DNA of 64,000 nt from positions 3,648,001-3,712,000 of the forward strand of contig OY970296.1 in assembly GCA_963716175.1 (NCBI GenBank), in the 5' to 3' direction. Positions 7,675 to 63,684 of this stretch are shown piece after piece. This DNA is from an uncultured Armatimonadetes bacterium (GTDB taxonomy: Bacteria; Armatimonadota; Hebobacteria; Hebobacterales; Hebobacteraceae). Position 1 is the stretch's first letter; each line of letters starts with the position of its first letter. A program made the position numbers and the translations under genes. The notes under the pieces were generated by a model that did no database searches, was not told where the DNA came from, and worked only from the letters and a program-made list of their open reading frames with translations.

Positions 7675-7754
7675 CAATCGGATACTGATTGACGCTATGC
7701 TGCAGAGCGGCCAACCCCATGCCCGCCCGTACCCGCCTGCCGATTCGCCGGCCG

Positions 7755-14483: not shown

Positions 14484-15660
14484 CAGCTCTAACCCCTACT
14501 GCCGCGCCTGCGAGAAAGGCCACCACCGGGACCGCCCAGGTCGCGGCCACCACCAAGCGCGATCGCATTACCTGCTCGCCAGCCAGCAGCTCCGACCTGG
14601 CAATTGCTTTTCCACCCGCCAGGATTCTTGCCTCTCCCACCACTGCTCGTCGGGCTACAGGCGCCGTCATGGGCTTCAGGCTGATCTGAAGCTGGCCGGC
14701 CGCGGGCAGGCCCGGCCCGACCACCTGGGCCAGCCCCTGCTGGCAGACGGCCGGAACCGAACCCTCTCGCCCGAATCGCACCGGGGCACGGCCCACCGCG
14801 TCCCCGCGCCGCGCGAACACGCGCTGCCGGTAAGCGGAAAAACCATAGTCCAGCAGGGCCAGCGCTTCCCCGTAGGTATCGGGGCTGTCGAGAACCACCG
14901 CAATGAGCTGCCATCCCTGCCTGGTCGCCGAGGCCACCAGGCACTGCCCGGACTCCCGGACATAGCCGGTCTTGACCCCGTCCACGTAGTCGGCGCGCCA
15001 GAGCAGTCTGTTGTGGTTCTGCAGGGTCTCCTTGCCGTTGACATCGGGCCGCGCCACCTCTGCCGTCTTCCGCCCCACCAGCTCGCGGAAGCGGTCGTAG
15101 TTCATCGCCTCTCGCGCGATCAGGGCGAGGTCATAGGCCGAGGAGTAGTGATCCGGGGCGTAGAGGCCGTGCGGGTTCACGAAGTGGCTATCCGCGGCGC
15201 CCAGTGATCTGGCCCGCTCGTTCATGAGCCGGGAGAAAGCGGTTACGCTTCCGGCGACGTGATCGGCGATGGCGACCGCGGCCCCGTTCGAGGATTTGAG
15301 CAGCAGCGCCGCGAGCAGGTCATCCAGAGTCATGCGCTCACCGGGCTGGAAGTCGAGGCCCGGGGATTTCACCTCGGTTGCGTCGGCGCCGATGGTGGCG
15401 TAGTCATTGAGATGGGCCGACTCGAGCGTCACCAGCGCGGTCATGATCTTGGTGGTGCTGGCCACCGGACGCCGCTGATGCATCGCCCGATCGCAGAGCA
15501 CAGCGCCGGTGGCCGCGTCCATCAGCACTGCGGCACTGGCACCAACAACCGGGGGCTGGCCTCGCGCCGGCGCCGCGATCGCCAGCGCGCAGAGCGCAAG
15601 CGCGAACGCCCGCGCGGTTGCCCGCCAGACGGCCGGCGGGCAGGCCTGCACCTGCTTCAT
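14392..15660 (-). CDS. D-alanyl-D-alanine carboxypeptidase (peptidase S11)
   Basis: Signal peptide; SxxK (STTK), SxN (SSN), NPHGL and KTG motifs; C-terminal TM. Confidence 0.92.
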   Translation of the reverse strand: MKQVQACPPAVWRATARAFALALCALAIAAPARGQPPVVGASAAVLMDAATGAVLCDRAMHQRRPVASTTKIMTALVTLESAHLNDYATIGADATEVKSPGLDFQPGERMTLDDLLAALLLKSSNGAAVAIADHVAGSVTAFSRLMNERARSLGAADSHFVNPHGLYAPDHYSSAYDLALIAREAMNYDRFRELVGRKTAEVARPDVNGKETLQNHNRLLWRADYVDGVKTGYVRESGQCLVASATRQGWQLIAVVLDSPDTYGEALALLDYGFSAYRQRVFARRGDAVGRAPVRFGREGSVPAVCQQGLAQVVGPGLPAAGQLQISLKPMTAPVARRAVVGEARILAGGKAIARSELLAGEQVMRSRLVVAATWAVPVVAFLAGAAVGVRAGAKLVKNRRRRRRRLPPQGNGTGPNGPSLC

Positions 15661-16346
15661 CCTGCCGACAGCTCCTGCGCCTCCGATCCAGTAGGTTCCT
15701 CGCCGCTCTCCGGCTCCCTGTCCGAGCGCAGCGATTCCGCGCCGGCGCGGGCCTCGGCCTCATCCACCGGAATGGTATCGAGCCGCGGCAGGTCCTGAAT
15801 GGTGTTCAACCCGAACTTGCCCAAGAAGTTGTCGGTGGTGCGATAGAGCACTGGGCGACCCGGCGCCTCTTTGCGCCCGGCCTCCTGCACCAACTCATAC
15901 TGAAGCAATGTGTCCAGCGGGGAGTCCGAGTTCACGCCCCGGATGGCGTCAATCTCCGGCCGAGTAACCGGCTGCTTATAGGCCACGATGGCCAGCGTTT
16001 CCAGCGCCGCGCGAGAGAGCCGGAAGCGCTCGGGGCGGTGCAGCCGGGCCACGTAACGGCCGTACTCCGGGCGAGTCGCCACCTGATACCCGCCGGCCAC
16101 TCGCTGCACCTGAAGGCCGCGATGGGCATAATCAGCCTCCAACTGCTGGGCGAGAGCGTCGGCCTGCGGTGGGGTGATGCCCAGAATCTCGGCCAGATCC
16201 TGGGCCGAGAGGGGTTCGGCGGCCACGAAGAGCACCGCCTCCAAAGCGCACAACTCTGCGGCAGGGCAGGGATTCCCGTTCCCACCACTTGCTGCCTCGG
16301 CGGGCATAGGCATGCCCGCCCCACAGTCCGGCCCTGGGTTGGTCAT
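15657..16346 (-). CDS. scpB: SMC-Scp complex subunit ScpB
   Basis: LEAVLFVA, LSRAALETLAIVAYKQPVTR, IRGVNS, GRPVLYRTT, DLP. Confidence 0.95.
   Translation of the reverse strand: MTNPGPDCGAGMPMPAEAASGGNGNPCPAAELCALEAVLFVAAEPLSAQDLAEILGITPPQADALAQQLEADYAHRGLQVQRVAGGYQVATRPEYGRYVARLHRPERFRLSRAALETLAIVAYKQPVTRPEIDAIRGVNSDSPLDTLLQYELVQEAGRKEAPGRPVLYRTTDNFLGKFGLNTIQDLPRLDTIPVDEAEARAGAESLRSDREPESGEEPTGSEAQELSAG
16299..16324 (-). repeat. REP hairpin variant in the scpB 5' end
   Basis: GTGGGGCGGGCATGCCTATGCCCGCC on the minus strand. Confidence 0.75.
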
Positions 16347-19245: not shown

Positions 19246-20034
19246 TCAGGCGAGGTCGAGGCGCTGCAAGGACCGGAATCCCTCGCGCGCCACCACCACT
19301 GAGTCTTCCTGCCAGTAGCCCTCGTTGTGCAGCTCCAGGCAATAGTACCCGGAGTAGCCCTTCGACCTCAAGGCCGCCAGCAGCTCCTCCAGCGGCAGCA
19401 CCCCGGTGCCCGGGTAGACCCGGTGACGATTCTCCATCTCGTAGCGGGGCAGGGCCATGCAGTCGCTGAGCTGCACCAGTGATATCTTCTCCCCGGGCAG
19501 CGGCTCCAGCATATCCAGGCTGGAACCCCCCTGGTAGAAATAGAAGCTGTCTATCACCAGTCCACTGTTCTCCGCCTCCGCCACCTCCACGATCTCCCAG
19601 GCCGCGGCCAGGGTGTTCACCTGCTGGAACGAGCCCACGAACTCCAGACCCACCCTCACCCCATAGGGATGGGCGAGGCGGCACAACTCGTGAAACTGAG
19701 CGGCCGCGGTCAAGGGCTCGATCTCCCCGCTGGGAGGACAGGCGATCACCACCGCGCAGTCCAGGTTGGCGGCCAGCTCGAAGGCCTGCTCCGCCCGCGC
19801 CAGGGCCATCGTGCGCCAGGTGCGGTCCGGGTCCATCCATCCCGACAGTCCCGACAGGTCGGATACCCGGATGCCGCTCAGCCTCACCTCCTCCACCCCG
19901 GCCTCGCCTTGCTCCGCCATCTCGTCCCAGATCAAGCCTACCGCGCCAAACCCCGCGGTGCGAGCCGCGTACAGCTTCGCCTCCAGGGAGGCGGGCTGGA
20001 TGGTGGCGAGATGAAGGGAAGCCTTATTCGGCAT
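19246..20034 (-). CDS. Sugar phosphate isomerase/epimerase (xylose isomerase-like TIM barrel)
   Basis: GLEFVG, GLVIDSFYF, LVQLSD, RVYPGTG, GYYCLEL. Confidence 0.85.
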   Translation of the reverse strand: MPNKASLHLATIQPASLEAKLYAARTAGFGAVGLIWDEMAEQGEAGVEEVRLSGIRVSDLSGLSGWMDPDRTWRTMALARAEQAFELAANLDCAVVIACPPSGEIEPLTAAAQFHELCRLAHPYGVRVGLEFVGSFQQVNTLAAAWEIVEVAEAENSGLVIDSFYFYQGGSSLDMLEPLPGEKISLVQLSDCMALPRYEMENRHRVYPGTGVLPLEELLAALRSKGYSGYYCLELHNEGYWQEDSVVVAREGFRSLQRLDLA

Positions 20035-20650
20035 GCCTTCCCTTCTCCGTGCCGGCCCCGAGTTCCTGGTCGAGGATGAGCCGAAGCTGGCGCATGTCCG
20101 CCTCCAGCTCATCAACCACGCGGGCCTGATGCAGCGCCGCGGCCGGGTGATAGACGGGGACATAGAGGATGCCGCTCATGCGCCTGGGCTTCCCGTGCTC
20201 GCGGCTGATCGAGAGCTTCGGGTCAATCAGCGATTGGGCGGCGAACCGGCCCAGGGCGCAGATCACCTTCGGGGTGATGAGCGCGATCTGCGCGATCAGG
20301 TAATCGTGGCAGGCGGCGATCTCCTCAGGGCGAGGATCGCGGTTCCCCGGGGGCCGGCACTTCACCAGATTGGTGATGAAAACCTGGCGCCGATCGATGC
20401 GGATGCCACGCAACAGGTTAGTCAGCAGCTTCCCCGCAGTGCCCACGAAGGGCCGGCCTTGCTGGTCTTCCTCAGCTCCAGGGGCCTCGCCCACGAACAT
20501 CACCTGGGAATCCACCGAGCCTTCGCCCGGGACCGCGTTGGTGCGACTGCGGCAGAGCGCGCACAGGGGGCAGCGCCGGATCTGCGCATGCACCTCCTCC
20601 AGCGCCGCTTCCCGTTCTGTAGGGCGGGCATGCCCATGCCCGCCAGCCAT
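20024..20650 (-). CDS. Uracil-DNA glycosylase family 4
   Basis: [36 protein letters not shown]. Confidence 0.95.
20619..20644 (+). repeat. GTAG-type REP hairpin in the UDG 5' end
   Basis: GTAGGGCGGGCATGCCCATGCCCGCC. Confidence 0.85.
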
Positions 20651-20651
20651 G

Positions 20652-21533
20652 CTAGAGCAGCCCAAGCCCCCCCAGCTCCTCTCGCAGCACCGCGCGGCAG
20701 CGCTCCGTGGCCGGCAGCAGCGGCAGCCGCGTGCTTCCGCCCACCAGCCCCAGCATCTCCATCGCCGCTTTCACCGGGACCGGGTTGGTCTCCAGGAACA
20801 AGGCCTTGGCGATGGGCAGCAGGCGAAAGTGAATTTCGCGCGCCGCAGCCAACTCACCGGCCGCGATCAGGTCCACCATCCGGCGCCACTCCCCGGGGAG
20901 AATGTGAGCATCGGCAAGAATGCCTCCCACCCCGCCCAGGCAGCAGATGGCGAAGGTCATGTTGCCATCGCCGCTCAGCACCGCGAACCCCGGCGCCGTC
21001 AGGCGCAGGATCTCGTTGACCTGATTCAGGTCTCCGCTCGCCTCCTTGATGCCGGCAATGTTGGGCACCCGGGAGAGGGCGGCCACGGTCTCGGGCTCCA
21101 TGTTGACGCCAGTGCGCTTGGGGATGTTGTACATGACGATGGGAAGCGAGCTCGCCGCCGCCAGCCTGGTGAAGTGCTCTACCAGCCCGCTCTGCATGGG
21201 CCGGTTGTAGTAGGGGCAGATCACCAGCGCCCCATCCGCCCCCGCTTGCTCGGCGTGCTGCGTGAGGGCGATGGCCTCGGCGGTGCTGTTGGACCCCGTG
21301 CCGGCGATCACTGGCACCCGGCCCGCCGCGTGTTGCACCGTCAGCTCCACCACCCGGCGGTGCTCATCATGAGTCAAGGTGGCAGATTCGCCGGTGGTGC
21401 CACAGGGCGCCAGGCCGCTCGCCCCCTGCTCGATCAGGTAATCCAGGAGCTTGCGCAGCCCTGCCTCATCCACCCCCTGCGCCGAGAACGGTGTGATATT
21501 GGGAACGAATACGCCTCGCAGGTTCAAGGCCAT
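20652..21533 (-). CDS. dapA: 4-hydroxy-tetrahydrodipicolinate synthase
   Basis: [32 protein letters not shown]. Confidence 0.96.
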
Positions 21534-33493: not shown

Positions 33494-34803
33494 GTCGCGC
33501 GTAGGTTGACCACCTCTGCACCGGGGTAGTAGGCGGCCAGGATCTCGGCTGCCGTCTGTCCGGCCTCCGCGCGGCCGCGGGCTCCCCACTGGCAGAGGCC
33601 GATGCCATGGCCATGCCCTGTCCCGCGGAACACGAAGGCTTGCCCGCCGGCCGTGTGGTGAGCGCGGGGCCGTCCCCGGAGATTCTTCTCCACCGTGAGA
33701 TCGAAAGCGGTGCTGGGAAGCCCGCCCGCGCCCGGTCTGCCCGTTCCGAAGAGCCAGCGAATGGCATCGCCCCGCACCCGGTAACTCCCGGCGCTGGCCG
33801 TGATCTCGAGCCACTCCACCCGGCCGCCCTGGCGGCCCGCGATGTGCAGCCGGTTCAGCCGCCCCGGCCGCAGGCCTGGCTGGCCCAACACAGTTCCCAG
33901 GTTCCTGGCCACCAGCCGCTCGGTCTGGGCAAGGGTGAACCGCCGCGTCCAGTTCAGGCCCCGGTCGAGGCGGCAGTAGGGTGGTTCCCCATAGCCGTCG
34001 CGATCGCTGCTTCGGGTCAGGTAGGGCAGAAGCTTGCCCTGCCTTACCTCCCACGGGGCAGCGGTGGCACCCCCGCAGGCCGAGTGGTAGAGCGCGTCCA
34101 CTAGCAGACCGTTCCAGGCCAGGACTTGGCCGGCCGTCCTGCGCGTCGCCTCTGCCGCCGTTGAATCTCCGGGCGCCACGCCCGCGTAGGCCTGACAGTG
34201 CACCTGCGCGCAGAGATCAGCGCCCTCGGTGGCGTGATCGCCCAGGTGGTAAAGAGCGTAAGTGCGGGCCGCGATCGCCTGCGCCTCCATGGCCTCCAAG
34301 GGAAAGTCTCTGGGCAGCTCCGCGGCGACCACCCCGGCCACGTAGGCCTCCAGGTCAACCTGCGCGACCACGCGGAGGCCACTCTCCGCAATCGTGATCT
34401 CCAGTGCGCCGGGATAGGAGCCGCGCCGCCTCCCCGGCAAGCCGCCCCGGGCTGAGACCGTGATCCCCCCGGCGGCGGAGAGGGTGCGAATCCGCAGCGC
34501 TCTCCCACTCAGGCGGGCCGACCCCGCTCTCAGGGCGACTTGGCCTTGCCAGCGGCCGAGGACGGCGGCAGCGCCGCCACCGAGAGTGGCCAGGCGAGCG
34601 CCATCTCCTGCGTTCTCGACGGCAACGGCAGACGCGGAGCGCACCACCAGGGCCTCCGCCTGGTCGAGCATGAGAACGCGGATCTGCCGCTGGCCGTTGG
34701 CCCAGGGTACCACCTGGGCGGCCGGCACTTCCTTGGGCAGGCCTCCGGCGACGCCGAGGTGCCAGCAGAGCAGGGCTGCCAGCGCCCAGGGCGCGCCCGT
34801 CAC
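33490..34803 (-). CDS. SpoIID/LytB domain lytic transglycosylase
   Basis: LEAYVAGVVAAE, AQAIAARTYA, CQAY, GHGIGLCQWGA, ILAAYYPG; signal peptide. Confidence 0.92.
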   Translation of the reverse strand: MTGAPWALAALLCWHLGVAGGLPKEVPAAQVVPWANGQRQIRVLMLDQAEALVVRSASAVAVENAGDGARLATLGGGAAAVLGRWQGQVALRAGSARLSGRALRIRTLSAAGGITVSARGGLPGRRRGSYPGALEITIAESGLRVVAQVDLEAYVAGVVAAELPRDFPLEAMEAQAIAARTYALYHLGDHATEGADLCAQVHCQAYAGVAPGDSTAAEATRRTAGQVLAWNGLLVDALYHSACGGATAAPWEVRQGKLLPYLTRSSDRDGYGEPPYCRLDRGLNWTRRFTLAQTERLVARNLGTVLGQPGLRPGRLNRLHIAGRQGGRVEWLEITASAGSYRVRGDAIRWLFGTGRPGAGGLPSTAFDLTVEKNLRGRPRAHHTAGGQAFVFRGTGHGHGIGLCQWGARGRAEAGQTAAEILAAYYPGAEVVNLRAT

Positions 34804-35546
34804 GGCTCGCACCCTGCAGGGCCGACGTCTCCCCGCATCTCCGCGGCCTGCCGCTTCTGCAGCCAATCCGGCAGATCGGCGAGAGAGTCGAGTACTACGT
34901 CCGCGCCGGCCTTAAGCAGGCTGCTATCCGCGCTGCTGCCAGTGCGGACGCCGATGCACACCTGGACCCCTGCCGCGCGCCCGGCCTGCATGTCGAAGTC
35001 GTGGTCTCCCACCATGGCGGCGTTCGCCGGATGGCGACCCAGCACGGCAAGGCAGCGGTGCACGTGATCGGGGTCCGGCTTGGGCCGGGGCACATCATCC
35101 CGGGTGAGCAGCAGATCGTAGTGGGCAGTCTGTAGGGCGGGCCTGCCCATGCCCGCCGTCCCCGCTCCCGCTGCGCGCAGCTCCCGGAGCACGATCTCGG
35201 AGGCGGCCCGGCAGTTACGGGTGATCAGCGCCACGGCCAGGCCCCGCTTCCGCAACTGCGAGAGGGCCTCGGCCGCGCCCGGCAGCAGGTTCGCCTCTCG
35301 CGCCGCCTCCAGTTCGATCGCCACCACCGCCTGCGTCGCTTCCTCGCGGAACTCCTGCCCGCTCTCATGCAGGCCGGCCGCCTGCTCGATCTGCTCGATG
35401 ACACCGCGGGCCCGGAGCTGGTCAAGATCGAAACCCCGCCGGCTCGCAATGACGGCGACGGCTTCTCGCATCGCGCGGAAATCAATGGGACAGGTCGCCA
35501 CCGTCCCATCCACATCCAGGATGACGACATCAACTGGGATCACCAC
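34800..35546 (-). CDS. HAD-superfamily phosphatase (subfamily IA)
   Basis: DVDGT, ITRN, KPDP, MVGD..FDM.AG. Confidence 0.9.
   Translation of the reverse strand: MVIPVDVVILDVDGTVATCPIDFRAMREAVAVIASRRGFDLDQLRARGVIEQIEQAAGLHESGQEFREEATQAVVAIELEAAREANLLPGAAEALSQLRKRGLAVALITRNCRAASEIVLRELRAAGAGTAGMGRPALQTAHYDLLLTRDDVPRPKPDPDHVHRCLAVLGRHPANAAMVGDHDFDMQAGRAAGVQVCIGVRTGSSADSSLLKAGADVVLDSLADLPDWLQKRQAAEMRGDVGPAGCEP
35132..35157 (+). repeat. GTAG-type REP hairpin inside the HAD gene
   Basis: GTAGGGCGGGCCTGCCCATGCCCGCC, one mismatch to the copy at 20619..20644. Confidence 0.85.
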
Positions 35547-35622
35547 CGCTCACTCCTGGTTGGCCGGTCGCCGATGGCCGGGCTCTGCCGCCACCGCGGC
35601 CCAAGGGGCTTAGCTGCCTGCT

Positions 35623-36861
35623 CTACTGGAAGGCGCGCACGATCAGAATCGCGTTGTGCCCGCCGAAGCCAAAGGAGTTGGACATGGCGATGCGGACTGG
35701 CATCGCCCGCGCCTGGTTCGGGACGTAGTCGAGGTCGCACTCCGGGTCCGGGTTCTCCAGGTTGATGGTCGGAGGCACCACCTGGTCCCGGAGGGCGAAC
35801 AGGCAGGCGATGAACTCGATGGCGCCGGCCGCCCCCAGGGTATGCCCGGTCATGGACTTGGTGGAGCTGCACGGCACCGCCCCTGCTCTCTCCCCGAACA
35901 CCCGCTTCAGGGCCAGGGTCTCGGCCACATCGCCCACATCGGTGGAGGTGCCGTGAGCGTTCACGTAGTCAACCTGGTCTGGGCCAATGCCAGCATCGCG
36001 CAGCGCTACCTCCATCGCCCGGGCCATGCCATCGCCGTCCGGGCAAGGTTGCGTGATGTGGTAGGCATCCGCGCTCATGCCATAGCCTATGATCTCCCCG
36101 TAGATGCGCGCGCCGCGCTTCCGCGCCGACTCCATCTCCTCCAGCACCACCGCCCCCGCTCCCTCTGCCATTACGAACCCGTCGCGATCGCGGTCGAAGG
36201 GTCTGCTGGCGGCCTGCGGGCGCTCGTTCTTGCGAGATAGCGCTCGCATGGCACAGAACCCAGCTACCGCCAGTGGGGAGACCGAGGCCTCGCTGCCTCC
36301 CGCGATCATCACCTCCGCATCGCCCCGTTTGATCACCTCGGAGGCCTCGCCAATGGTGTGGGTACTGGTGGCGCAGGCGGTGGCAATGGAGAAGTTCGGC
36401 CCTTTCGCCCCCAGCATCATGGCGATGCGGCCGGCGGCGATGTCGAGAATCAGCATCGGGATGAAGAACGGGCTGATCCGGCCCGGGCCTTTCTCCAGCA
36501 GCACCCGGTGCTGGTCCTCCCAGGTCCAGGTGCCGCCGATGCCGGAGCCGATCAGCACGCCCACGCGAGTGGCGTCAACCGCGCCCAGGTCCAGTCCGGA
36601 GTCGTCGGCCGCCATCTTGGCGGCGCCGATGGCGAACTGGGTGAAGCGGTCGCAGTGGCGCGCCTCCCTCGCCTCCAGCCAGACGGTGGGGTCGAAGCCC
36701 CTGACTTCGCCCGCGATCCGCGAGGGGAAGGCGGAGGCGTCGAACAAGGTGATGCGATCTATGCCTGACCGGCCCGCGCGCATCCCCTCCCAGCTAATCT
36801 CGGCCCCCAGTCCCAGGGGGGTGAGCGCGCCCACGCCGGTGACGGCGACGCGTCGTTCCAT
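35623..36861 (-). CDS. fabF: 3-oxoacyl-ACP synthase II
   Basis: RRVAVTGVG, TACAT, NAHGTST, KSMTGH, NSFGFGGHN. Confidence 0.97.
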   Translation of the reverse strand: MERRVAVTGVGALTPLGLGAEISWEGMRAGRSGIDRITLFDASAFPSRIAGEVRGFDPTVWLEAREARHCDRFTQFAIGAAKMAADDSGLDLGAVDATRVGVLIGSGIGGTWTWEDQHRVLLEKGPGRISPFFIPMLILDIAAGRIAMMLGAKGPNFSIATACATSTHTIGEASEVIKRGDAEVMIAGGSEASVSPLAVAGFCAMRALSRKNERPQAASRPFDRDRDGFVMAEGAGAVVLEEMESARKRGARIYGEIIGYGMSADAYHITQPCPDGDGMARAMEVALRDAGIGPDQVDYVNAHGTSTDVGDVAETLALKRVFGERAGAVPCSSTKSMTGHTLGAAGAIEFIACLFALRDQVVPPTINLENPDPECDLDYVPNQARAMPVRIAMSNSFGFGGHNAILIVRAFQ

Positions 36862-39040: not shown

Positions 39041-40044
39041 GCCATGACCATCGTGCCCCAACTCAGGCCCGCGCCGAAGCTGGAGAGCATGACGTGATCC
39101 CCCGGGTGTATGCGCCCGCCGCGCGCCGCCTCGTCGAGGGCCAGGGGGATGGAGGCAGCGGAGGTGTTGCCGTAGCGATCCACATTGCAGACAAACCGCT
39201 CATAGGGGATGTTGAGCCGTTTCGCCGCCGCGTCTATGATCCGCAAATTGGCCTGATGCGGGACCACTATCTCGATGTCGCTCATGGTGAGGCCGGCCTG
39301 ACTCACCGCGCGCTCGGACGACTCCACCATCGCTCGCACTGCGAACTTGAAGACCTCGCCACCCACCATGGTGAGATAGTGCTGGCGATTCGCCACCGTT
39401 TCGGCGCTGGCCGGCAGCCGGGAGCCTCCGGCCGGGACCTTCAGCGCGTCCGCGTTGGTGCCGTCATTGCCCAGGGAGTAGCTCAAGATGCCGCGGCCCT
39501 TGGGCATCGGGGCCACCAGCGCAGACCCGGCCGCGTCGCCGAACAGCACGCAGGTGCTGCGGTCCTGCCAGTCCGTGATCCGGGACAGGGTCTCCGAGCC
39601 GGTCACCAGCGCTCGCCGGTAGGCGCCGGTGCCCACCATCTCGTGGGCCACCGCCAACCCGTAGATGAATCCGGTGCATCCCACCAGCAGGTCGAAGGCC
39701 ACGGCATTCGTGGCGCCCAGGGCATGCTGGACAATGGCCGCGGTGCAGGGGAAGAGCGTGTCCGGGGTGACGGTGGCGACGATTACCAGGTCAATATCGG
39801 CGGGGGTGAGATGAGCGTCTGCCAGGGCGGCGCGAGCACTTTCCAGGGCGAGATCGGAAGTGGCCACGTCGGGGTCGGCAATGCGCCGTTGCTCAATGCC
39901 GGTGCGGGTGCGGATCCACTCGTCAGAGGTGTCAACCATCTTCTCCAGATCGAAGTTGGTCAGCACCCGCGAGGGTGTGTAGGAGCCTGTGGCGACGATC
40001 CCAGCTGGAATGGGCGCGGGTCTCAACCTTGCTGCTCGCCTCAC
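39034..40044 (-). CDS. fabH: 3-oxoacyl-ACP synthase III
   Basis: DTSDEWIRTRTGI, GCTGF, PHQAN, YGNTSAAS, FGAGL.W. Confidence 0.96.
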   Translation of the reverse strand: MRRAARLRPAPIPAGIVATGSYTPSRVLTNFDLEKMVDTSDEWIRTRTGIEQRRIADPDVATSDLALESARAALADAHLTPADIDLVIVATVTPDTLFPCTAAIVQHALGATNAVAFDLLVGCTGFIYGLAVAHEMVGTGAYRRALVTGSETLSRITDWQDRSTCVLFGDAAGSALVAPMPKGRGILSYSLGNDGTNADALKVPAGGSRLPASAETVANRQHYLTMVGGEVFKFAVRAMVESSERAVSQAGLTMSDIEIVVPHQANLRIIDAAAKRLNIPYERFVCNVDRYGNTSAASIPLALDEAARGGRIHPGDHVMLSSFGAGLSWGTMVMAW

Positions 40045-41078
40045 TGGCCTGAATCTCTGGCCGCCGCGGCCTCCGCCGGAGAGGCCATCATCTGCCGGAA
40101 AGACGAGGCCAGCTCTGCTACCACGCCCTGCTGGGCCAACTCCCCGGCCACCCGGACCGCGCTCTCAATCGCCAGCGGGGACGACCGGCCGTGGGCTATC
40201 ACGCAAACGCCGTTGACCCCCACCAGGAGAGCACCGCCGTGGGAGGCATAGTCCAATTCGCGGCCCAGGGAGCGCAGCCCCGGCCTCAGCAGCCATGCCC
40301 CCAGTCGGTAGCGCCACCGGCTGGAGAGCCGCTGGCGCAGCATATGGAAGAAGAGTTCGGCGTAGCCCTCCACCGCCTTCAGCAGCACGTTGCCTGCGAA
40401 GCCGTCGCAGACCACCACCTCCACCTCGCCCAGAGGCACCTCTTTGCCCTCGATATTGCCCACGAAGTTGATGGGGGCCCCCTGCAGCAGAGCAAAAGCC
40501 TTCTTGGTCAGCGCGCTGCCCTTCGACGGCTCTTCCCCGATGCTGAGCAGGCCCACCCGCGGCCGTGCCACGTGCAGCAGACAATGGGCATAGATGGACC
40601 CCATGATGGCGAAATCACGCAGGTGCGCCGGCCGCGGGTCCACGGTCGCTCCTACGTCCAGCACCACCACGCTCCCGTGCCGGTTGGGCAAGAGCAACGC
40701 AATGGCCGGCCTCTCCACCCCGGAAAGCATGCCCAGCCGCAGCACCGCTGCCCCCATCACCGCCCCCGAGTTGCCGGCGGAGACCACTCCGCAGGCCCGC
40801 CCCTCCTTTACCAGCTCCGTCGCCACCACGATGGAGGCGTCTCGCCGCCGCAGCAGCGCGGGCCCGGGGGACTCCCCCATCCCGATGGCGTCAGCCGCGT
40901 GCACGATCTCCAGTCCGGACGGCAGGGGCCGATGGCGATCCAGCTCGGCCTTGAGCTGGCCCTCGTCTCCCACCAACAGCACTGCTCGGCCCAGACTTCG
41001 CGCTGCCTGCACCGCGCCGGCCACGGTCGTCTGTGGGGCGTGGTCTCCTCCCATCGCATCCAGGGCCACCGGGATCAA
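40041..41078 (-). CDS. plsX: Phosphate acyltransferase PlsX
   Basis: ALDAMGGDHAP, SAGNSGA, DVGA.VD, CDGFAGN, HGRS. Confidence 0.97.
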   Translation of the reverse strand: MIPVALDAMGGDHAPQTTVAGAVQAARSLGRAVLLVGDEGQLKAELDRHRPLPSGLEIVHAADAIGMGESPGPALLRRRDASIVVATELVKEGRACGVVSAGNSGAVMGAAVLRLGMLSGVERPAIALLLPNRHGSVVVLDVGATVDPRPAHLRDFAIMGSIYAHCLLHVARPRVGLLSIGEEPSKGSALTKKAFALLQGAPINFVGNIEGKEVPLGEVEVVVCDGFAGNVLLKAVEGYAELFFHMLRQRLSSRWRYRLGAWLLRPGLRSLGRELDYASHGGALLVGVNGVCVIAHGRSSPLAIESAVRVAGELAQQGVVAELASSFRQMMASPAEAAAARDSGQ

Positions 41079-41320: not shown

Positions 41321-41349
41321 TTCACTCGCCTCCGCGTGCAGGGGATTCC

Positions 41350-41379
41350 GTAGGGCGGGCATGCCTCCGCATGCCCGCC
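41350..41379 (+). repeat. GTAG-type REP hairpin (intergenic)
   Basis: GTAGGGCGGGCATGCCTCCGCATGCCCGCC. Confidence 0.85.
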
Positions 41380-41388
41380 GCCCTTCGC

Positions 41389-41910
41389 TCACCCACCAGT
41401 CTGTCTGCCCAGCAGCTCCCCCAGCTTCGACCACCGCTCATCCGCGGTATCTGCTGAGCAGCCGCACGGGCCTTCGTTCAGGTTCTTGCCACAGCTTGGG
41501 CAGATGCCGCGACAGTCCGGTCTGCAGACGAACGCCATCGGGACGCTGAGGGCAACCTGCTGGCGCACGGACTCCCCGGCGTCCAGCACATAGTCCGCAA
41601 TCGCCGCCTCCTCCGGCGCATCGCGATCTATGGTCTGCACATCTGGCGCCGTGCCTTCCGACGCGAATTCCTCCTCTACCTCCGCCTCGACCGGCTGCTC
41701 CACCTCCGTCAGGCACCGCACACAGGTGAGCTTGAGCACTGCCCTCAGCCTCCCCCTCACCAGCAGCAGGGAGCCGGTGTTCTCCACGGTCAACTCGCCA
41801 ATTACCGGCCCGACGCAGGAATATCCTTCGCCTGGAGCTACAGGTTCGGAGATGGGGTAACGGCCGCGCTCGCCCGGCGTGCCTGCAATGTCGGCTAGAT
41901 CGATCTTCAC
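41389..41910 (-). CDS. DUF177 (YceD) protein
   Basis: CVRCL, CRPDCRGICPSCG.NLNEGPC.C, DERWSKL; canonical position upstream of rpmF. Confidence 0.93.
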   Translation of the reverse strand: MKIDLADIAGTPGERGRYPISEPVAPGEGYSCVGPVIGELTVENTGSLLLVRGRLRAVLKLTCVRCLTEVEQPVEAEVEEEFASEGTAPDVQTIDRDAPEEAAIADYVLDAGESVRQQVALSVPMAFVCRPDCRGICPSCGKNLNEGPCGCSADTADERWSKLGELLGRQTGG

Positions 41911-48560: not shown

Positions 48561-48566
48561 TGCGCT

Positions 48567-48643
48567 GTAGGGCGGGCATGTGGCTAGGCTTGGGCCGCCA
48601 TGGCGGTCGCCTCCGGCAACCTAGCCATCCGCGCATGCCCGCC
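48567..48643 (+). repeat. GTAG REP with a second palindromic element nested in its loop
   Basis: GTAGGGCGGGCATG-[TGGCTAGG...CCTAGCCA]-..GCATGCCCGCC. Confidence 0.75.
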
Positions 48644-48662
48644 GTGCGAAAGGAGATCTCGC

Positions 48663-49565: not shown

Positions 49566-49591
49566 GTAGCGGCGTGATTCATCACGCCCAC
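49566..49591 (+). repeat. Single REP hairpin (second GTAG family)
   Basis: GTAGCGGCGTGATTCATCACGCCC. Confidence 0.65.
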
Positions 49592-49603
49592 GTGGAGGAG
49601 CGT

Positions 49604-50290
49604 GTGAGTCTGGGGCTCGCGGTGGTGATCATCGGCCTGGATCGCGAGCCCACCGCCAGCCTCGCGGCCGACGTGCGGCGGCTCGGCTACCGCGCGGAAG
49701 TAATCGCCTGGCCCTTTCCTCAGCCCTGGAGGGCGGGCATACCTAGGCCCGCCGCGGTGCTGGTGGATTTCCGCCTCCTGGGGGCGGAGGCGGGCCGGGC
49801 CTGTCAGGCGGTACGGGAAGACCCAGGGCTGCGCCAGGCGCCGCTGGTCGCGGTCGTCCCCGAGCAAGAGGCGGCGCGGCTTGACCTCTCCCTCGGCTTC
49901 GATGACCTGATTCTGTCCCCCTATCGGCTGTCCGAGCTCGCCTCCCGCCTGAGGCTCGTGCGATGGCGCACCGAAGGCGACTCCTCCAACCAGGTGATTC
50001 GTGCCGGCAGACTCAGCCTCAATCAGGTCACCTATCAGGTGGCGATCGCGGGCCGCGCGGTTGAGCTCACCCTGAAGGAGTACCAACTGCTGCTGTTTCT
50101 GATGCGGCAGCCGGGTCGTGTCTTCACCCGGGAGGAGCTGCTCTACCATGTCTGGGGCGACTCCTACTTCGGGGGCACACGCACCGTGGACGTCCACGTG
50201 CGCCGCCTTCGGGCGAAGACCGAGCAGGCCGGCAACCTGATCGAGACCGTGCGCGGGGTGGGCTATCGCTTCACCTCGCCGGAAGGGTAG
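49604..50290 (+). CDS. OmpR-family orphan regulator, GlnR-like
   Basis: Atypical receiver lacking the N-terminal acidic pair and Lys (DDLILSP); LTLKEYQLL, GGTRTVDVHVRRLR, TVRGVGY; adjacent to glnA. Confidence 0.8.
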   Translation: MSLGLAVVIIGLDREPTASLAADVRRLGYRAEVIAWPFPQPWRAGIPRPAAVLVDFRLLGAEAGRACQAVREDPGLRQAPLVAVVPEQEAARLDLSLGFDDLILSPYRLSELASRLRLVRWRTEGDSSNQVIRAGRLSLNQVTYQVAIAGRAVELTLKEYQLLLFLMRQPGRVFTREELLYHVWGDSYFGGTRTVDVHVRRLRAKTEQAGNLIETVRGVGYRFTSPEG

Positions 50291-62804: not shown

Positions 62805-63635
62805 TCAGGGTTTCTGCATCTCCTTGGCAATGACCGCAGTCGCGTGCACGATGTGGCTGAAGCGTGAGGCGTCGAGGCTGGCTCCCCCCACCAGGGCCCC
62901 GTCAATCTCGGGCTGGGACATCAGTTCGTGGGCATTGGCGTCGCTCACGCTTCCCCCGTACTGGATGCGAACCGCGGAGGCGGCCTCCGCGCCGAACTGC
63001 TTCCGGACCGCGCGCCGGATCACGCCGATCACCCGGTTCGCCTCGCCCGCATCGCAGGCCTGCCCGGTGCCGATCGCCCACACAGGCTCATAAGCCAAGA
63101 CCAGGCCCCCTACCTGGTCGGAGGTGACTTCCGCCAGACCGGTGTTGACCTGATCGGTCACAACCTCGTCCGTGCGGCCCGCCTCCCGCTCCGGCAGAGT
63201 CTCCCCTATGCACATGATCGGCACCAGGTTGTGCTTGAGGGCGGCTTTCACTTTGAGGTTGACGCTGGCGTCGGTGTCGCCGAACACCCGCATCGCCTCC
63301 GCGCCCAGCGACTCATCCGGTCGCCCGAAACGCCCCCTCCGCTCTGAGTGCCCGATGATGGCGTACTTGCATCCCAGGTCCACCAGCATCAGGGGGCTGA
63401 TCATACCGGTGAAGGCGCCGGAGTCAGCCCAGAACACGTCCTGCGCGCCCAAGGCAATCTCCGACCCCTCCAGGGCCTGGGCCACCGCGCTCAAGGCCGT
63501 GGCCGGCGGACACACCGCCGCCTCCACCCGCTCGATCCCTTGCACCCGCGGCATCAACTCCTTGACGAAGACCACGGCCTCGGCCACGGTCTTGTTCATC
63601 TTCCAGTTTCCCGCGATCAGCGGCGTTCGCGCCAT
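62805..63635 (-). CDS. tpiA: Triosephosphate isomerase
   Basis: AGNWKMN, GHSERR, AYEPVWAIGTG, YGGSV, LVGGASL. Confidence 0.98.
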   Translation of the reverse strand: MARTPLIAGNWKMNKTVAEAVVFVKELMPRVQGIERVEAAVCPPATALSAVAQALEGSEIALGAQDVFWADSGAFTGMISPLMLVDLGCKYAIIGHSERRGRFGRPDESLGAEAMRVFGDTDASVNLKVKAALKHNLVPIMCIGETLPEREAGRTDEVVTDQVNTGLAEVTSDQVGGLVLAYEPVWAIGTGQACDAGEANRVIGVIRRAVRKQFGAEAASAVRIQYGGSVSDANAHELMSQPEIDGALVGGASLDASRFSHIVHATAVIAKEMQKP

Positions 63636-63658: not shown

Positions 63659-63684
63659 AGCGGACGTGGAAGTGCCCGCCCTAC
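63659..63684 (-). repeat. Degenerate GTAG REP
   Basis: GTAGGGCGGGCACTTCCACGTCCGC between pgk and tpiA. Confidence 0.65.

What the first reader, a model, noticed from the sequence alone, without database searches (positions are those of the whole stretch)
35125..35175. GTAG REP hairpins inserted in frame in protein-coding genes
Seen: a 26-30 bp palindrome (GTAGGGCGGGCATG-n-CATGCCCGCC) occurs between genes (41350, 48567, 63659, degenerate near 7710) and also inside CDSs. In the HAD phosphatase it lies mid-gene within a roughly 14-aa loop (RAAGAGTAGMGRPALQTAH) between the ITRN motif helix and DLLLTRDD. It also forms the N-terminus of UDG (20619, GGHGHARPT) and of ScpB (16299, CGAGMPMPA). The three copies give different peptides, so the DNA rather than the peptide is conserved. 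Established: GTAG+hairpin REPs are substrates of RAYT (TnpA-REP) transposases and are normally extragenic; coding insertions are best known from Rickettsia RPEs. Inference: this lineage tolerates REP insertions that create new peptide segments.
Basis: partly seen in the sequence, partly recalled or inferred. Interest (0 to 1): 0.72.

Follow-up and report, generated by a model that had tools for sequence, protein, structure and literature searches.

The report
REP hairpins translated inside genes
A small mobile DNA hairpin that normally sits between genes has also landed, without breaking the reading frame, inside working genes of this uncultured bacterium, adding short floppy loops to the proteins; this is real but has been described before in other bacteria.

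Summary
The motif is a GTAG-headed REP family: unit (C)TGTAGGGCGGGCATG-loop-CATGCCCGCCG, 213 strict and 319 loose copies in the 4.56-Mb genome. Five REP-associated tyrosine transposase (RAYT) genes are present, and three of them are flanked by REPs.

In the HAD phosphatase the REP lies in a 51-nt (17-aa) in-frame insertion at window 35127-35177. All 13 orthologue alignments that span the site lack it. AlphaFold2 models it as a low-confidence coil between a helix and a strand. Contigs from two other metagenomes carry it.

The UDG copy follows a Shine-Dalgarno/TTG start conserved in 4 of 4 orthologues, so it is probably translated. The ScpB copy lies in a variable N-terminal tail, and its start is less certain.

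Genome-wide, 35 of 213 strict copies lie inside predicted genes, against 3984 of 5000 random sites. Hosts include single-copy AlaRS, EPSP synthase, PyrR, RibF, TruB, PriA, RecG and one RAYT gene.

Intragenic GTAG REPs are already in print (Di Nocera 2013; Quentin 2018), and this scan has noted them in other genomes and noted this REP family in this genome. It is a new member of a known kind, here in an Armatimonadota-like lineage.

The parts
34800..35546 (-). HAD-superfamily phosphatase gene (248 aa) that hosts the insertion
   Evidence: Pfam PF00702 (E 3e-20) and PF13419. Catalytic-motif residues D11, D13, T109, K156, D181 and D185 are invariant in alignment A1.
35127..35177 (-). 51-nt in-frame insertion encoding RAAGAGTAGMGRPALQT (residues 124-140)
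   Evidence: Absent from all 13 orthologue alignments that span the site and from 12 of 12 in A1. AF2 coil with pLDDT below 50 at residues 132-137. Carried by contigs of runs X2 and X3.
35130..35158 (+). REP unit inside the HAD insertion (GTAG head on the strand opposite the gene)
   Evidence: One mismatch to the 14-mer head. Hairpin -9.4 kcal/mol. Unit boundaries from the consensus of 126 short-loop copies.
20024..20665 (-). Family-4-type uracil-DNA glycosylase gene
   Evidence: Pfam PF03167, E 8e-37. TTG start with an AGGAG 10 nt upstream, conserved in 4 of 4 orthologues.
20617..20648 (+). REP copy within codons 6-16 of UDG ([11 protein letters not shown])
   Evidence: Exact 14-mer head. G000 has 12 residues more than the orthologues between the conserved start and ALxEV.
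15657..16346 (-). ScpB gene
   Evidence: Pfam PF04079 over residues 34-189. The MTNPGP start resembles the orthologue N-termini.
16296..16326 (-). REP copy in the N-terminal tail of ScpB (CGAGMPMPA); whether it is translated depends on which start is used
   Evidence: One mismatch in the head (GTGG). Hairpin -13.3 kcal/mol. The N-terminal tail varies in length among orthologues.
41348..41381 (+). Intergenic REP copy (4-nt-longer loop variant)
   Evidence: Exact head. Hairpin -16.1 kcal/mol. Lies between predicted genes 40041-41078 and 41389-41793.
48565..48647 (+). Intergenic long-loop REP (about 60 nt nested between the two arms)
   Evidence: Exact head, with the reverse arm at 48634-48647. 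Fold -28.6 kcal/mol. Lies between predicted genes.
63659..63684 (-). Degenerate intergenic REP copy
   Evidence: Two mismatches in the head. Lies between predicted genes 62805-63635 and 63692-64903.
7705..7731 (-). Degenerate REP remnant (one arm only)
   Evidence: Exact 11-mer GGGCGGGCATG on the minus strand, with no matching second arm. Lies between predicted genes.

Best explanation
The palindrome is a REP (repetitive extragenic palindrome) of the GTAG-tagged super-family. It is a non-autonomous hairpin element, most likely spread by the genome's own RAYT/TnpA-REP tyrosine (HUH-Y1) transposases acting on single-stranded DNA.

New copies land anywhere. Selection removes nearly all that hit genes. 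The survivors add a multiple of three bases, carry no stop (one of the six frames reads G|TAG) and fall in surface loops, inter-domain linkers or terminal tails.

There they are transcribed and translated as short Gly/Ala/Pro/Met/Arg-rich peptides that the fold tolerates. In the HAD phosphatase the result is a 17-residue disordered loop between the helix that follows motif II and the next beta-strand. That places it on the side of the Rossmann-like sheet away from the active site.

Shown: the element family, its RAYT genes, the insertion relative to orthologues, the open frames, the loop position in a model, and the presence of the insertion in other samples.

Inferred: mobilisation by RAYT, translation of the insert, retained enzyme activity, and the loop lying away from the active site.
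For: Family and transposases:
- 213 strict and 319 loose copies.
- Conserved unit (C)T-GTAG-stem-loop-stem-G; GTAG positions are 94-100% conserved in 126 short-loop copies.
- Five RAYT genes exceed the NF047646 cut-off. They carry the HUH (PDHVHFF) and Tyr (YVxxNPVRAGLV) motifs, and three have REPs alongside.

Insertions relative to orthologues:
- HAD: +17 aa, absent in 13 of 13 spanning alignments.
- UDG: +12 aa, 4 of 4.
- EPSP synthase: +22 aa, 5 of 5.
- PyrR: +7 to 10 aa (+9 to 10 in the two closer orthologues), 3 of 3.
- AlaRS site 2: +6 to 9 aa, 4 of 4 genomes.
- TruB: +19 to 20 aa, 5 of 5.

Position within genes:
- REPs lie inside single Pfam domain envelopes of PS_pyruv_trans, DUF1848, E1_dh, EPSP synthase, AlaRS (2), flavokinase (2), radical SAM, PRTase, TMEM260-like and TruB-C_2.
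- AlaRS is single-copy and open.

Selection:
- 35 of 213 strict copies are inside predicted genes, against 3984 of 5000 random sites (odds ratio 0.05).

HAD specifically:
- AF2 mean pLDDT 90.4. Inside the chain, only the insert (residues 132-137) falls below pLDDT 50; the C-terminal residues 245-248 also do.
- Contig X2 record 8 (34796-35244, no gaps) and contig X3 record 16 span the insert. No contig skips it.
Against: - No RNA or protein data exist. No run on record as RNA holds the stretch, so translation of the insert is not shown.
- Only 29 of the 51 inserted nt in HAD are REP. The origin of the other 22 nt is unexplained.
- AlaRS site 1 carries a perfect GTAG palindrome with no change of length against 4 orthologues. 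That fits replacement, or insertion plus deletion, better than simple insertion.
- The gene census rests on my own crude gene caller (3606 genes, 81.5% density), which picks starts poorly.
- Loose hits include false positives. Four of the first 27 candidate ORFs looked like chance matches, and the response-regulator hit is native sequence.
- The genome seems to carry frameshift errors (LeuRS G-run).
Confidence: 0.85

Rival explanations
1. The UDG and ScpB copies are not coding. Translation starts downstream of the REP, which then sits in the 5' untranslated leader, as Di Nocera et al. argue for many N-terminal REPs.
For: - ScpB has an in-frame TTG just before the conserved ALEAVLF, and its N-terminal tail is unconserved.
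- UDG has an in-frame GTG (EEV) downstream of the REP.
- My gene caller chose downstream starts for both.
- Di Nocera 2013 (passage read) warns that most REPs at the NH2 terminus may be extragenic.
Against: - UDG: the AGGAGCT...AGC TTG start that overlaps the end of dapA is conserved in 4 of 4 orthologues and in G000. The residues ALxEVHxQIRRC downstream of the REP are conserved as protein. The GTG has its GGAGG only 2 nt upstream.
- ScpB: MTNPGPD matches the orthologue starts MSDQGPE and MTN..SPGPE.
- This rival does not touch the HAD case or the other mid-gene cases.
Confidence: 0.25
2. The intragenic copies have been co-opted. The hairpin in the mRNA (pausing, stability, RNase protection) or the encoded peptide serves the cell or the element, and the copies are kept for that reason.
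For: - Intragenic copies are no more decayed than intergenic ones: mean mismatches 1.89 (35 deep copies) against 1.84 (200 intergenic), Mann-Whitney p 0.91.
- Hosts again include DNA replication and repair genes (PriA, RecG, DnaE, RecJ, Lhr, UDG), tRNA synthetases and TruB. These are the classes named by Di Nocera 2013.
- One RAYT gene carries a REP between its HUH and Tyr motifs, as Quentin 2018 reports for subclass 2.4.
Against: - Sites, frames and host proteins are unrelated to one another.
- Orthologues work without the inserts.
- Equal decay also fits recent insertion.
- Long multi-domain proteins offer more tolerant sites, and I made no length-corrected enrichment test.
Confidence: 0.07
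3. The REP-bearing genes are inactivated pseudogenes that happen still to be open.
For: The genome has apparent frameshifts (LeuRS; DnaE split into three ORFs), so some genes may be broken.
Against: - All mid-gene REPs examined keep the frame and lack stops.
- AlaRS, with two REPs, is the only AlaRS in the genome.
- HAD catalytic residues are invariant.
- The HAD insert persists, with single-base differences, in other samples.
- 80% of random sites but only 16% of REPs are genic, which shows that selection acts.
Confidence: 0.04
4. Chance resemblance or an assembly artefact: the palindrome in HAD is native sequence or was introduced by the assembler.
For: - One window look-alike (49728) and four loose genome hits proved to be native or chance sequence.
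- Repeats can mislead assemblers.
Against: - The HAD copy has 2 mismatches in total to a 26-nt consensus.
- It is absent from 13 of 13 orthologue alignments.
- It is present in independent contigs of runs X2 and X3.
Confidence: 0.01

Closest known systems
GTAG-tagged REPs with RAYT 'REPtrons', including intragenic REPs (Di Nocera, De Gregorio & Rocco 2013, BMC Genomics 14:522, PMC3733652; passages and supplementary file 3, part 1, read)
   Same: - GTAG foot, G+C-rich hairpin, hundreds of copies, mostly extragenic.
- The TAG of GTAG often serves as a stop codon (36 of 213 here).
- RAYT genes are flanked by REPs.
- A minority of copies sit in frame in known proteins, sometimes twice per gene. 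Hosts include DNA replication and repair genes, tRNA synthetases, TruB and DnaE.
   Different: - Different stem sequence.
- The host lineage is Armatimonadota-like (titles of relatives). That phylum is not among those the paper lists for GTAG repeats (Proteobacteria, Cyanobacteria, Chloroflexi, PVC).
- A search for 'Armatimonadetes' with 'repetitive extragenic palindromic' found 0 papers.
- Many copies here have long nested loops.
Rickettsia palindromic elements (RPE), 'selfish DNA in protein-coding genes' (as cited in PMC3733652, passage read; the original papers are recalled, not read)
   Same: Palindromic repeats inserted in frame in functional genes. The DNA rather than the peptide is conserved. 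The inserts are tolerated in loops.
   Different: - Di Nocera assigns RPE-4 and RPE-6 to the CGTC super-family, which has no dedicated transposase.
- RPE-1 is much longer.
- Rickettsia is a reduced intracellular genome; this one is 4.56 Mb.
REP insertions inside tnpA-REP genes of TnpA-Y1 subclass 2.4 / RAYT group 4 (Quentin, Siguier, Chandler & Fichant 2018, PMC6006769; passages read)
   Same: The RAYT at genome 3132 kb carries an in-frame GTAG REP (+11 aa against three paralogues) between the HUH and Tyr motifs. The paper describes exactly this.
   Different: - I did not assign these RAYTs to a subclass.
- Only 1 of the 5 RAYTs here carries an insert.
E. coli REP/BIME and TnpA-REP (PMC3479197 seen in a search listing only; PMC8266576, abstract only)
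   Same: A GTAG-tagged hairpin recognised by a Y1 HUH enzyme. The dissemination mechanism is still poorly understood.
   Different: - Different REP sequence.
- E. coli has a single RAYT gene (recalled).

Membership tests
GTAG-tagged REP (repetitive extragenic palindrome) | Conserved GTAG (or GTRG) tetranucleotide at the 5' foot of the hairpin | tested here: met
   GTAG positions are 94-100% conserved in 126 short-loop strict copies. The preceding T is 90% conserved.
GTAG-tagged REP (repetitive extragenic palindrome) | Short (20-40 bp) G+C-rich imperfect palindrome able to form a stem-loop | tested here: met
   The commonest lengths are 26 nt (106 of the 329 raw hits) and 30 nt (38). DNA folds run from -9.4 to -16.1 kcal/mol, z -2.7 to -4.5. 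A subset has long nested loops.
GTAG-tagged REP (repetitive extragenic palindrome) | High copy number (more than 100 per genome), dispersed | tested here: met
   213 strict and 319 loose copies, found in each of the nine 500-kb bins up to 4.5 Mb. The 14-mer head with up to 1 mismatch occurs 226 times, against 0-1 for the reversed control.
GTAG-tagged REP (repetitive extragenic palindrome) | Predominantly extragenic | tested here: met
   141 of 213 strict copies are intergenic, 37 overlap a gene end and 35 are inside. Of 5000 random sites, 838 are intergenic and 3984 inside. Gene calls are my own crude ones.
REPtron (RAYT gene with cognate REPs) | Y1 HUH transposase of the RAYT/TnpA-REP type encoded in the genome | tested here: met
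   PF01797 finds 5 places. All 5 pass NF047646 at 92-104 bits against a cut-off of 80. The HUH and Tyr motifs are aligned.
REPtron (RAYT gene with cognate REPs) | RAYT gene flanked by REPs, typically in inverted orientation | tested here: met
   962 kb: a forward REP upstream of the gene and an inverted long-loop REP downstream. 4050 kb: REPs of the GGCGGCCATGC variant on both sides. 3625 kb: three REPs on the 3' side only. 1199 kb has none. 3132 kb has one REP 337 nt upstream.
REPtron (RAYT gene with cognate REPs) | RAYT binds, cleaves and mobilises its REP | not testable with these tools
   This needs biochemistry or a mobility assay.
Intragenic (coding) REP in the sense of Di Nocera 2013 | REP lies wholly within an ORF encoding a known protein, the frame is kept, and homologues lack it | tested here: met
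   HAD, UDG, EPSP synthase, PyrR, AlaRS site 2 and TruB, each compared with 3-13 orthologues. Pfam envelopes span the REP in 11 genes.
Intragenic (coding) REP in the sense of Di Nocera 2013 | The REP-encoded residues are present in the protein | not testable with these tools
   No listed holder is on record as RNA, and there is no proteome.
Rickettsia palindromic element (RPE) | Sequence and size of an RPE family (CGTC-tagged RPE-4/6 or the long RPE-1) | tested here: not met
   The element is GTAG-tagged and about 29 nt long. It works like an RPE but is not a member.

The most novel reading that the evidence does not exclude
Insertion into genes is not merely tolerated noise. In this Armatimonadota-like lineage REPs are an ongoing source of loop and linker insertions in essential enzymes: 9 of the 35 deep intragenic hits match the consensus exactly. 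DNA replication and repair genes, tRNA synthetases, TruB and the RAYT gene itself are hit again, as in Opitutus, Xanthomonas and Rickettsia. That recurrence would reflect a real insertion bias or a benefit to the element or the host, not just the length and modularity of those proteins.
Probability: 0.1. Interest if true: 0.6.

Novelty: new member of a known kind. Interest (0 to 1): 0.36.

Why it matters
The case shows cleanly, with orthologue controls, that a RAYT-associated REP family can write short peptide segments into essential, single-copy enzymes without destroying them. The host phylum has no such elements in the papers I searched.

It has two practical uses. Annotators should not treat these segments as conserved protein features or as sequencing errors. 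Protein engineers get a natural map of insertion-tolerant loops: the HAD helix-to-strand loop, the EPSP synthase and AlaRS sites, and the TruB PUA-like domain.

It adds no new mechanism. The open question of how REPs insert stays open.

Tried and rejected
- **RNA evidence.** The look-up of sequencing runs listed no holder on record as RNA, so nothing can be said about expression.
- **Presence/absence polymorphism of the HAD insert.** No contig in four runs joined across the insert. Cover was partial in X1 and X6, so absence of the insert-free form is not shown.
- **Source of the 22 extra inserted nt in HAD.** No other genomic copy at 2 or fewer mismatches. A possible short direct repeat (CGGGAGC) at the border was seen by eye and not tested.
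- **Replication-strand bias.** REP orientation does not flip at the GC-skew extremes. Rejected as an explanation of the strand excess.
- **Orientation bias inside genes.** 17 opposite against 5 same among the deep strict copies is not significant against the 60% expected from open frames (p 0.13).
- **Decay of intragenic copies.** No difference from intergenic copies.
- **First census, by flank coding score.** It recovers only 43% of random sites as genic, so I replaced it with a gene-caller census.
- **Loose hits dropped as chance.** L027 (DUF6785), L034 site 299-324, L044 and L045 (HflX); L073; and the window response regulator at 49728.
- **A 17-mer I put together for the second repeat family** found nothing. 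A 15-mer did.

Full report
**What is at the site.** Window 35130-35158 (+) reads CTGTAGGGCGGGCCTGCCCATGCCCGCCG. It lies inside a 248-aa gene on the minus strand (34800-35546) that matches the Pfam HAD families (PF00702, E 3e-20).
- The 14-mer head GTAGGGCGGGCATG with up to 2 mismatches occurs 10 times in the window, against 1.09 expected. None of 100 shuffles reached 10.
- The window is G000:C1:3648001-3712000 of a single-contig genome of 4.56 Mb and 66% G+C.
- Genome-wide the 14-mer has 387 hits at up to 2 mismatches, 87 of them exact. REP-derived 12-mers are the most frequent 12-mers of the genome.

**The element.** I required the head (up to 2 mismatches) plus a reverse-complementary arm (up to 2 mismatches) within 120 nt.
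- This gave 329 hits: 319 after merging double hits of the palindrome, and 213 with at most 2 mismatches in all ('strict').
- The consensus of 126 short-loop strict copies is (C)T-GTAG-GGCGGGCATG-loop-CATGCCCGCC-G. GTAG is 94-100% conserved, and the flanks beyond the unit are not conserved.
- The commonest lengths are 26 and 30 nt. A minority carry 20-90 nt nested between the arms, such as window 48565-48647.
- As single-stranded DNA the copies fold into hairpins of -9.4 to -16.1 kcal/mol (z -2.7 to -4.5).
- Sister heads (GTAGGGCAGGT 66, GTAGGGCGGCC 51, GTAGGGCGGGT 36, GTAGGGCGGGG 34) show several sub-families.

**The transposases.** PF01797 (Y1_Tnp) finds five places in the genome.
- All five ORFs pass NCBIfam NF047646 'REP-associated tyrosine transposase' at 92-104 bits against a cut-off of 80.
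- They carry the HUH (PDHVHFF) and Tyr (YVxxNPVRAGLV) motifs.
- The 962-kb gene has a forward REP just upstream and an inverted long-loop REP downstream. The 4050-kb gene has REPs of the GGCGGCCATGC variant on both sides. The 3625-kb gene has three REPs on its 3' side.
- This is the published 'REPtron' layout (PMC3733652, passages read).
- The head with up to 1 mismatch occurs 226 times in G000, 1-73 times in 14 genomes of the same family, and at background level (0-7, against 0-8 for the reversed control) in most genomes of other families. So the family is shared by the bacterial family and expanded here.
- Titles of the nearest public relatives are Armatimonadota MAGs.

**The HAD case.** tblastn of the protein against orthologous loci from 14 related genomes gave 13 alignments that span the site.
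- Eleven alignments (51-64% identity; all of the same bacterial family) show a gap of exactly 17 residues opposite RAAGAGTAGMGRPALQT.
- The two most distant (42% and 39% identity) show 16.
- A MAFFT alignment shows the same gap in 12 of 12 other sequences. The catalytic residues (D11, D13, T109, K156, D181, D185) are invariant.
- The insertion is therefore 51 nt (35127-35177). Of these, about 29 nt are the REP unit. The other 22 nt match nothing else in the genome at 2 or fewer mismatches, and their origin is unexplained.
- AlphaFold2 on that alignment gives mean pLDDT 90.4. Inside the chain, only the insert falls below pLDDT 50 (residues 132-137); the C-terminal residues 245-248 also do. The insert is a coil (128-144) between helix 121-127 and strand 145-147.
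- By the topology of Rossmann-like folds, a helix-to-strand loop lies opposite the catalytic face. This is inference.
- Contigs from other metagenomes carry the insert with a few base differences: X2 record 8 (34796-35244, no gaps) and X3 record 16 (34845-35650). No contig joins across it. It is not an assembly artefact.

**UDG and ScpB.**
- In four orthologues, UDG starts at a TTG that overlaps the end of dapA, with AGGAG 10 nt upstream. G000 keeps both, then has 12 extra residues (REP-encoded [10 protein letters not shown] and neighbours) before the conserved ALxEVHxQIRRC. The downstream GTG has its GGAGG only 2 nt away. I put translation of this REP at about 75-80%.
- ScpB orthologues have unconserved N-terminal tails of about 30-45 residues before ALEAVLF. 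G000's MTNPGPD resembles two orthologue starts, but an in-frame TTG just before ALEAVLF cannot be excluded. I put it at about 65%.

**Genome-wide.** A home-made gene caller (codon log-odds, greedy selection; 3606 genes, 81.5% density) gave this census:

| Set | Inside a gene | Overlapping a gene end | Intergenic |
|---|---|---|---|
| Strict REPs (213) | 35 | 37 | 141 |
| Random 27-nt sites (5000) | 3984 | 178 | 838 |

- The odds ratio for 'inside' is 0.05, p 1e-82.
- 22 strict copies lie at least 150 nt from both gene ends.
- 36 of 213 supply the TAG stop of a predicted gene.
- Pfam scans of 27 + 12 host ORFs put REPs inside single domain envelopes of PS_pyruv_trans, DUF1848, E1_dh, EPSP synthase, AlaRS (two REPs), RibF flavokinase (two), a radical-SAM methylthiotransferase, PyrR, TMEM260-like and TruB-C_2.
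- Other REPs sit between domains in PriA (two), an Lhr C-terminal protein, a MiaB-like enzyme, a double GNAT, a GT1-GT2 protein, a double ABC ATPase and DnaE. Others sit near the N-termini of RecJ and RecG.

Orthologue checks of the inserts:

| Host | Change against orthologues | Orthologues |
|---|---|---|
| EPSP synthase | +22 aa | 5 of 5 |
| PyrR | +7 to 10 aa (+9 to 10 in the two closer) | 3 of 3 |
| AlaRS site 2 | +6 to 9 aa | 4 of 4 genomes |
| TruB | +19 to 20 aa | 5 of 5 |
| AlaRS site 1 | no change of length | 4 of 4 |

- At AlaRS site 1 the REP replaces an unrelated segment of equal size.
- AlaRS is the only AlaRS of the genome, so the REP-bearing gene must work.
- The peptides recur by frame: [47 protein letters not shown]. 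One frame is closed by G|TAG.
- Intragenic copies are not more decayed than intergenic ones.

**False positives.**
- Four loose hits (L027, L034 site 299-324, L044, L045) and L073 look like chance.
- The window look-alike at 49728 in a response regulator aligns without a gap to 4 of 4 orthologues.
- Counts from loose hits are therefore upper bounds.

**Comparison with what is known.**
- Di Nocera et al. 2013 (PMC3733652; passages, supplementary file 3 part 1) define the GTAG super-family and the REPtrons. They note that the TAG of the foot often serves as a stop.
- They list intragenic REPs for several species, with about 70 rows for Opitutus terrae. The hosts include DNA repair and replication proteins, tRNA synthetases, TruB and DnaE/DnaE2. 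They argue that the inserts sit in linkers or loops.
- Quentin et al. 2018 (PMC6006769, passages) report in-frame REPs inside tnpA-REP genes between the HUH and Tyr motifs. The RAYT at 3132 kb shows exactly that (+11 aa, a GTAGGGCGGGGCAT... palindrome).
- Rickettsia RPEs work the same way but belong to other families.
- The phyla listed for GTAG repeats in the 2013 paper do not include Armatimonadota. A full-text search for 'Armatimonadetes' plus 'repetitive extragenic palindromic' found 0 papers.
- Earlier notes of this scan describe the same REP family in this genome, and coding REPs in at least seven other genomes.

**Verdict.** What remains unshown is translation of the inserts, activity of the decorated enzymes, and the insertion mechanism, including the extra 22 nt in HAD and the length-neutral case in AlaRS.

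Noticed in passing
L017:1345-1917 (G000:C1:3132006-3132578): One of the five RAYT genes carries an in-frame REP of the GTAGGGCGGGG sub-family (+11 aa against three paralogues) between its HUH and Tyr motifs. Quentin et al. 2018 describe this for TnpA-Y1 subclass 2.4.
   Followed up: partly
L043 and upstream (G000:C1:4065757-4068374): LeuRS carries a head-to-head REP dimer encoding about 42 residues just before its anticodon-binding domain. The gene also changes frame at a run of G near the KMSKS region, which looks like a homopolymer error of a long-read assembly.
   Followed up: partly
L072 and downstream (G000:C1:3073189-3079550): DnaE appears split into three consecutive minus-strand ORFs (627, 686 and 777 aa by my gene caller). 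A REP (RRACGDMPALQ) sits between the PHP and polymerase domains. I did not resolve whether the splits are real or assembly errors.
   Followed up: no
genome-wide, e.g. G000:C1:178912-178950: A second, A+T-richer dispersed palindrome family, GCTGTTTCATAACCT-(about 9 nt)-AGGTTATGAAACAGC. It has 83 arm hits, mostly as pairs 24 nt apart, and is unrelated to the GTAG REP.
   Followed up: partly
window 48565-48647 and many genomic copies: Long-loop REPs carry recurrent inner modules between the two REP arms (e.g. GTGGCTAGGCC...GCCGCCATGGCGGTCGCC...CCTAGCC, or GTCGGAGTTTACCCTGAGCG.AGTCGAAGGG). This suggests nested or composite elements.
   Followed up: no
L036 residues 362-370 (G000:C1:3377662-3377687): AlaRS site 1 is a perfect GTAG palindrome that occupies a variable segment with no change of length against 4 orthologues. 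This is replacement rather than net insertion.
   Followed up: partly
genome-wide: 36 of 213 strict REPs supply the TAG stop codon of a predicted gene through their GTAG foot.
   Followed up: yes
genome-wide: REP heads show a strand excess (126 minus, 87 plus among strict copies). It does not switch at the GC-skew minimum (about 1.15 Mb) or maximum (about 3.58 Mb).
   Followed up: partly
window 49726-49755: A REP look-alike (GGAGGGCGGGCATACCTAGGCCCGCC) inside a GlnR/OmpR-type response regulator (49574-50290, +) is native sequence. Four of 4 orthologues align there with at most a 1-2 residue difference in length.
   Followed up: yes
window 35180 and 35472: The contig of run X3 that spans the HAD gene lacks 1 nt at 35180 and 2 nt at 35472 relative to the window. 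This is either strain variation or read errors, and it was not resolved.
   Followed up: no
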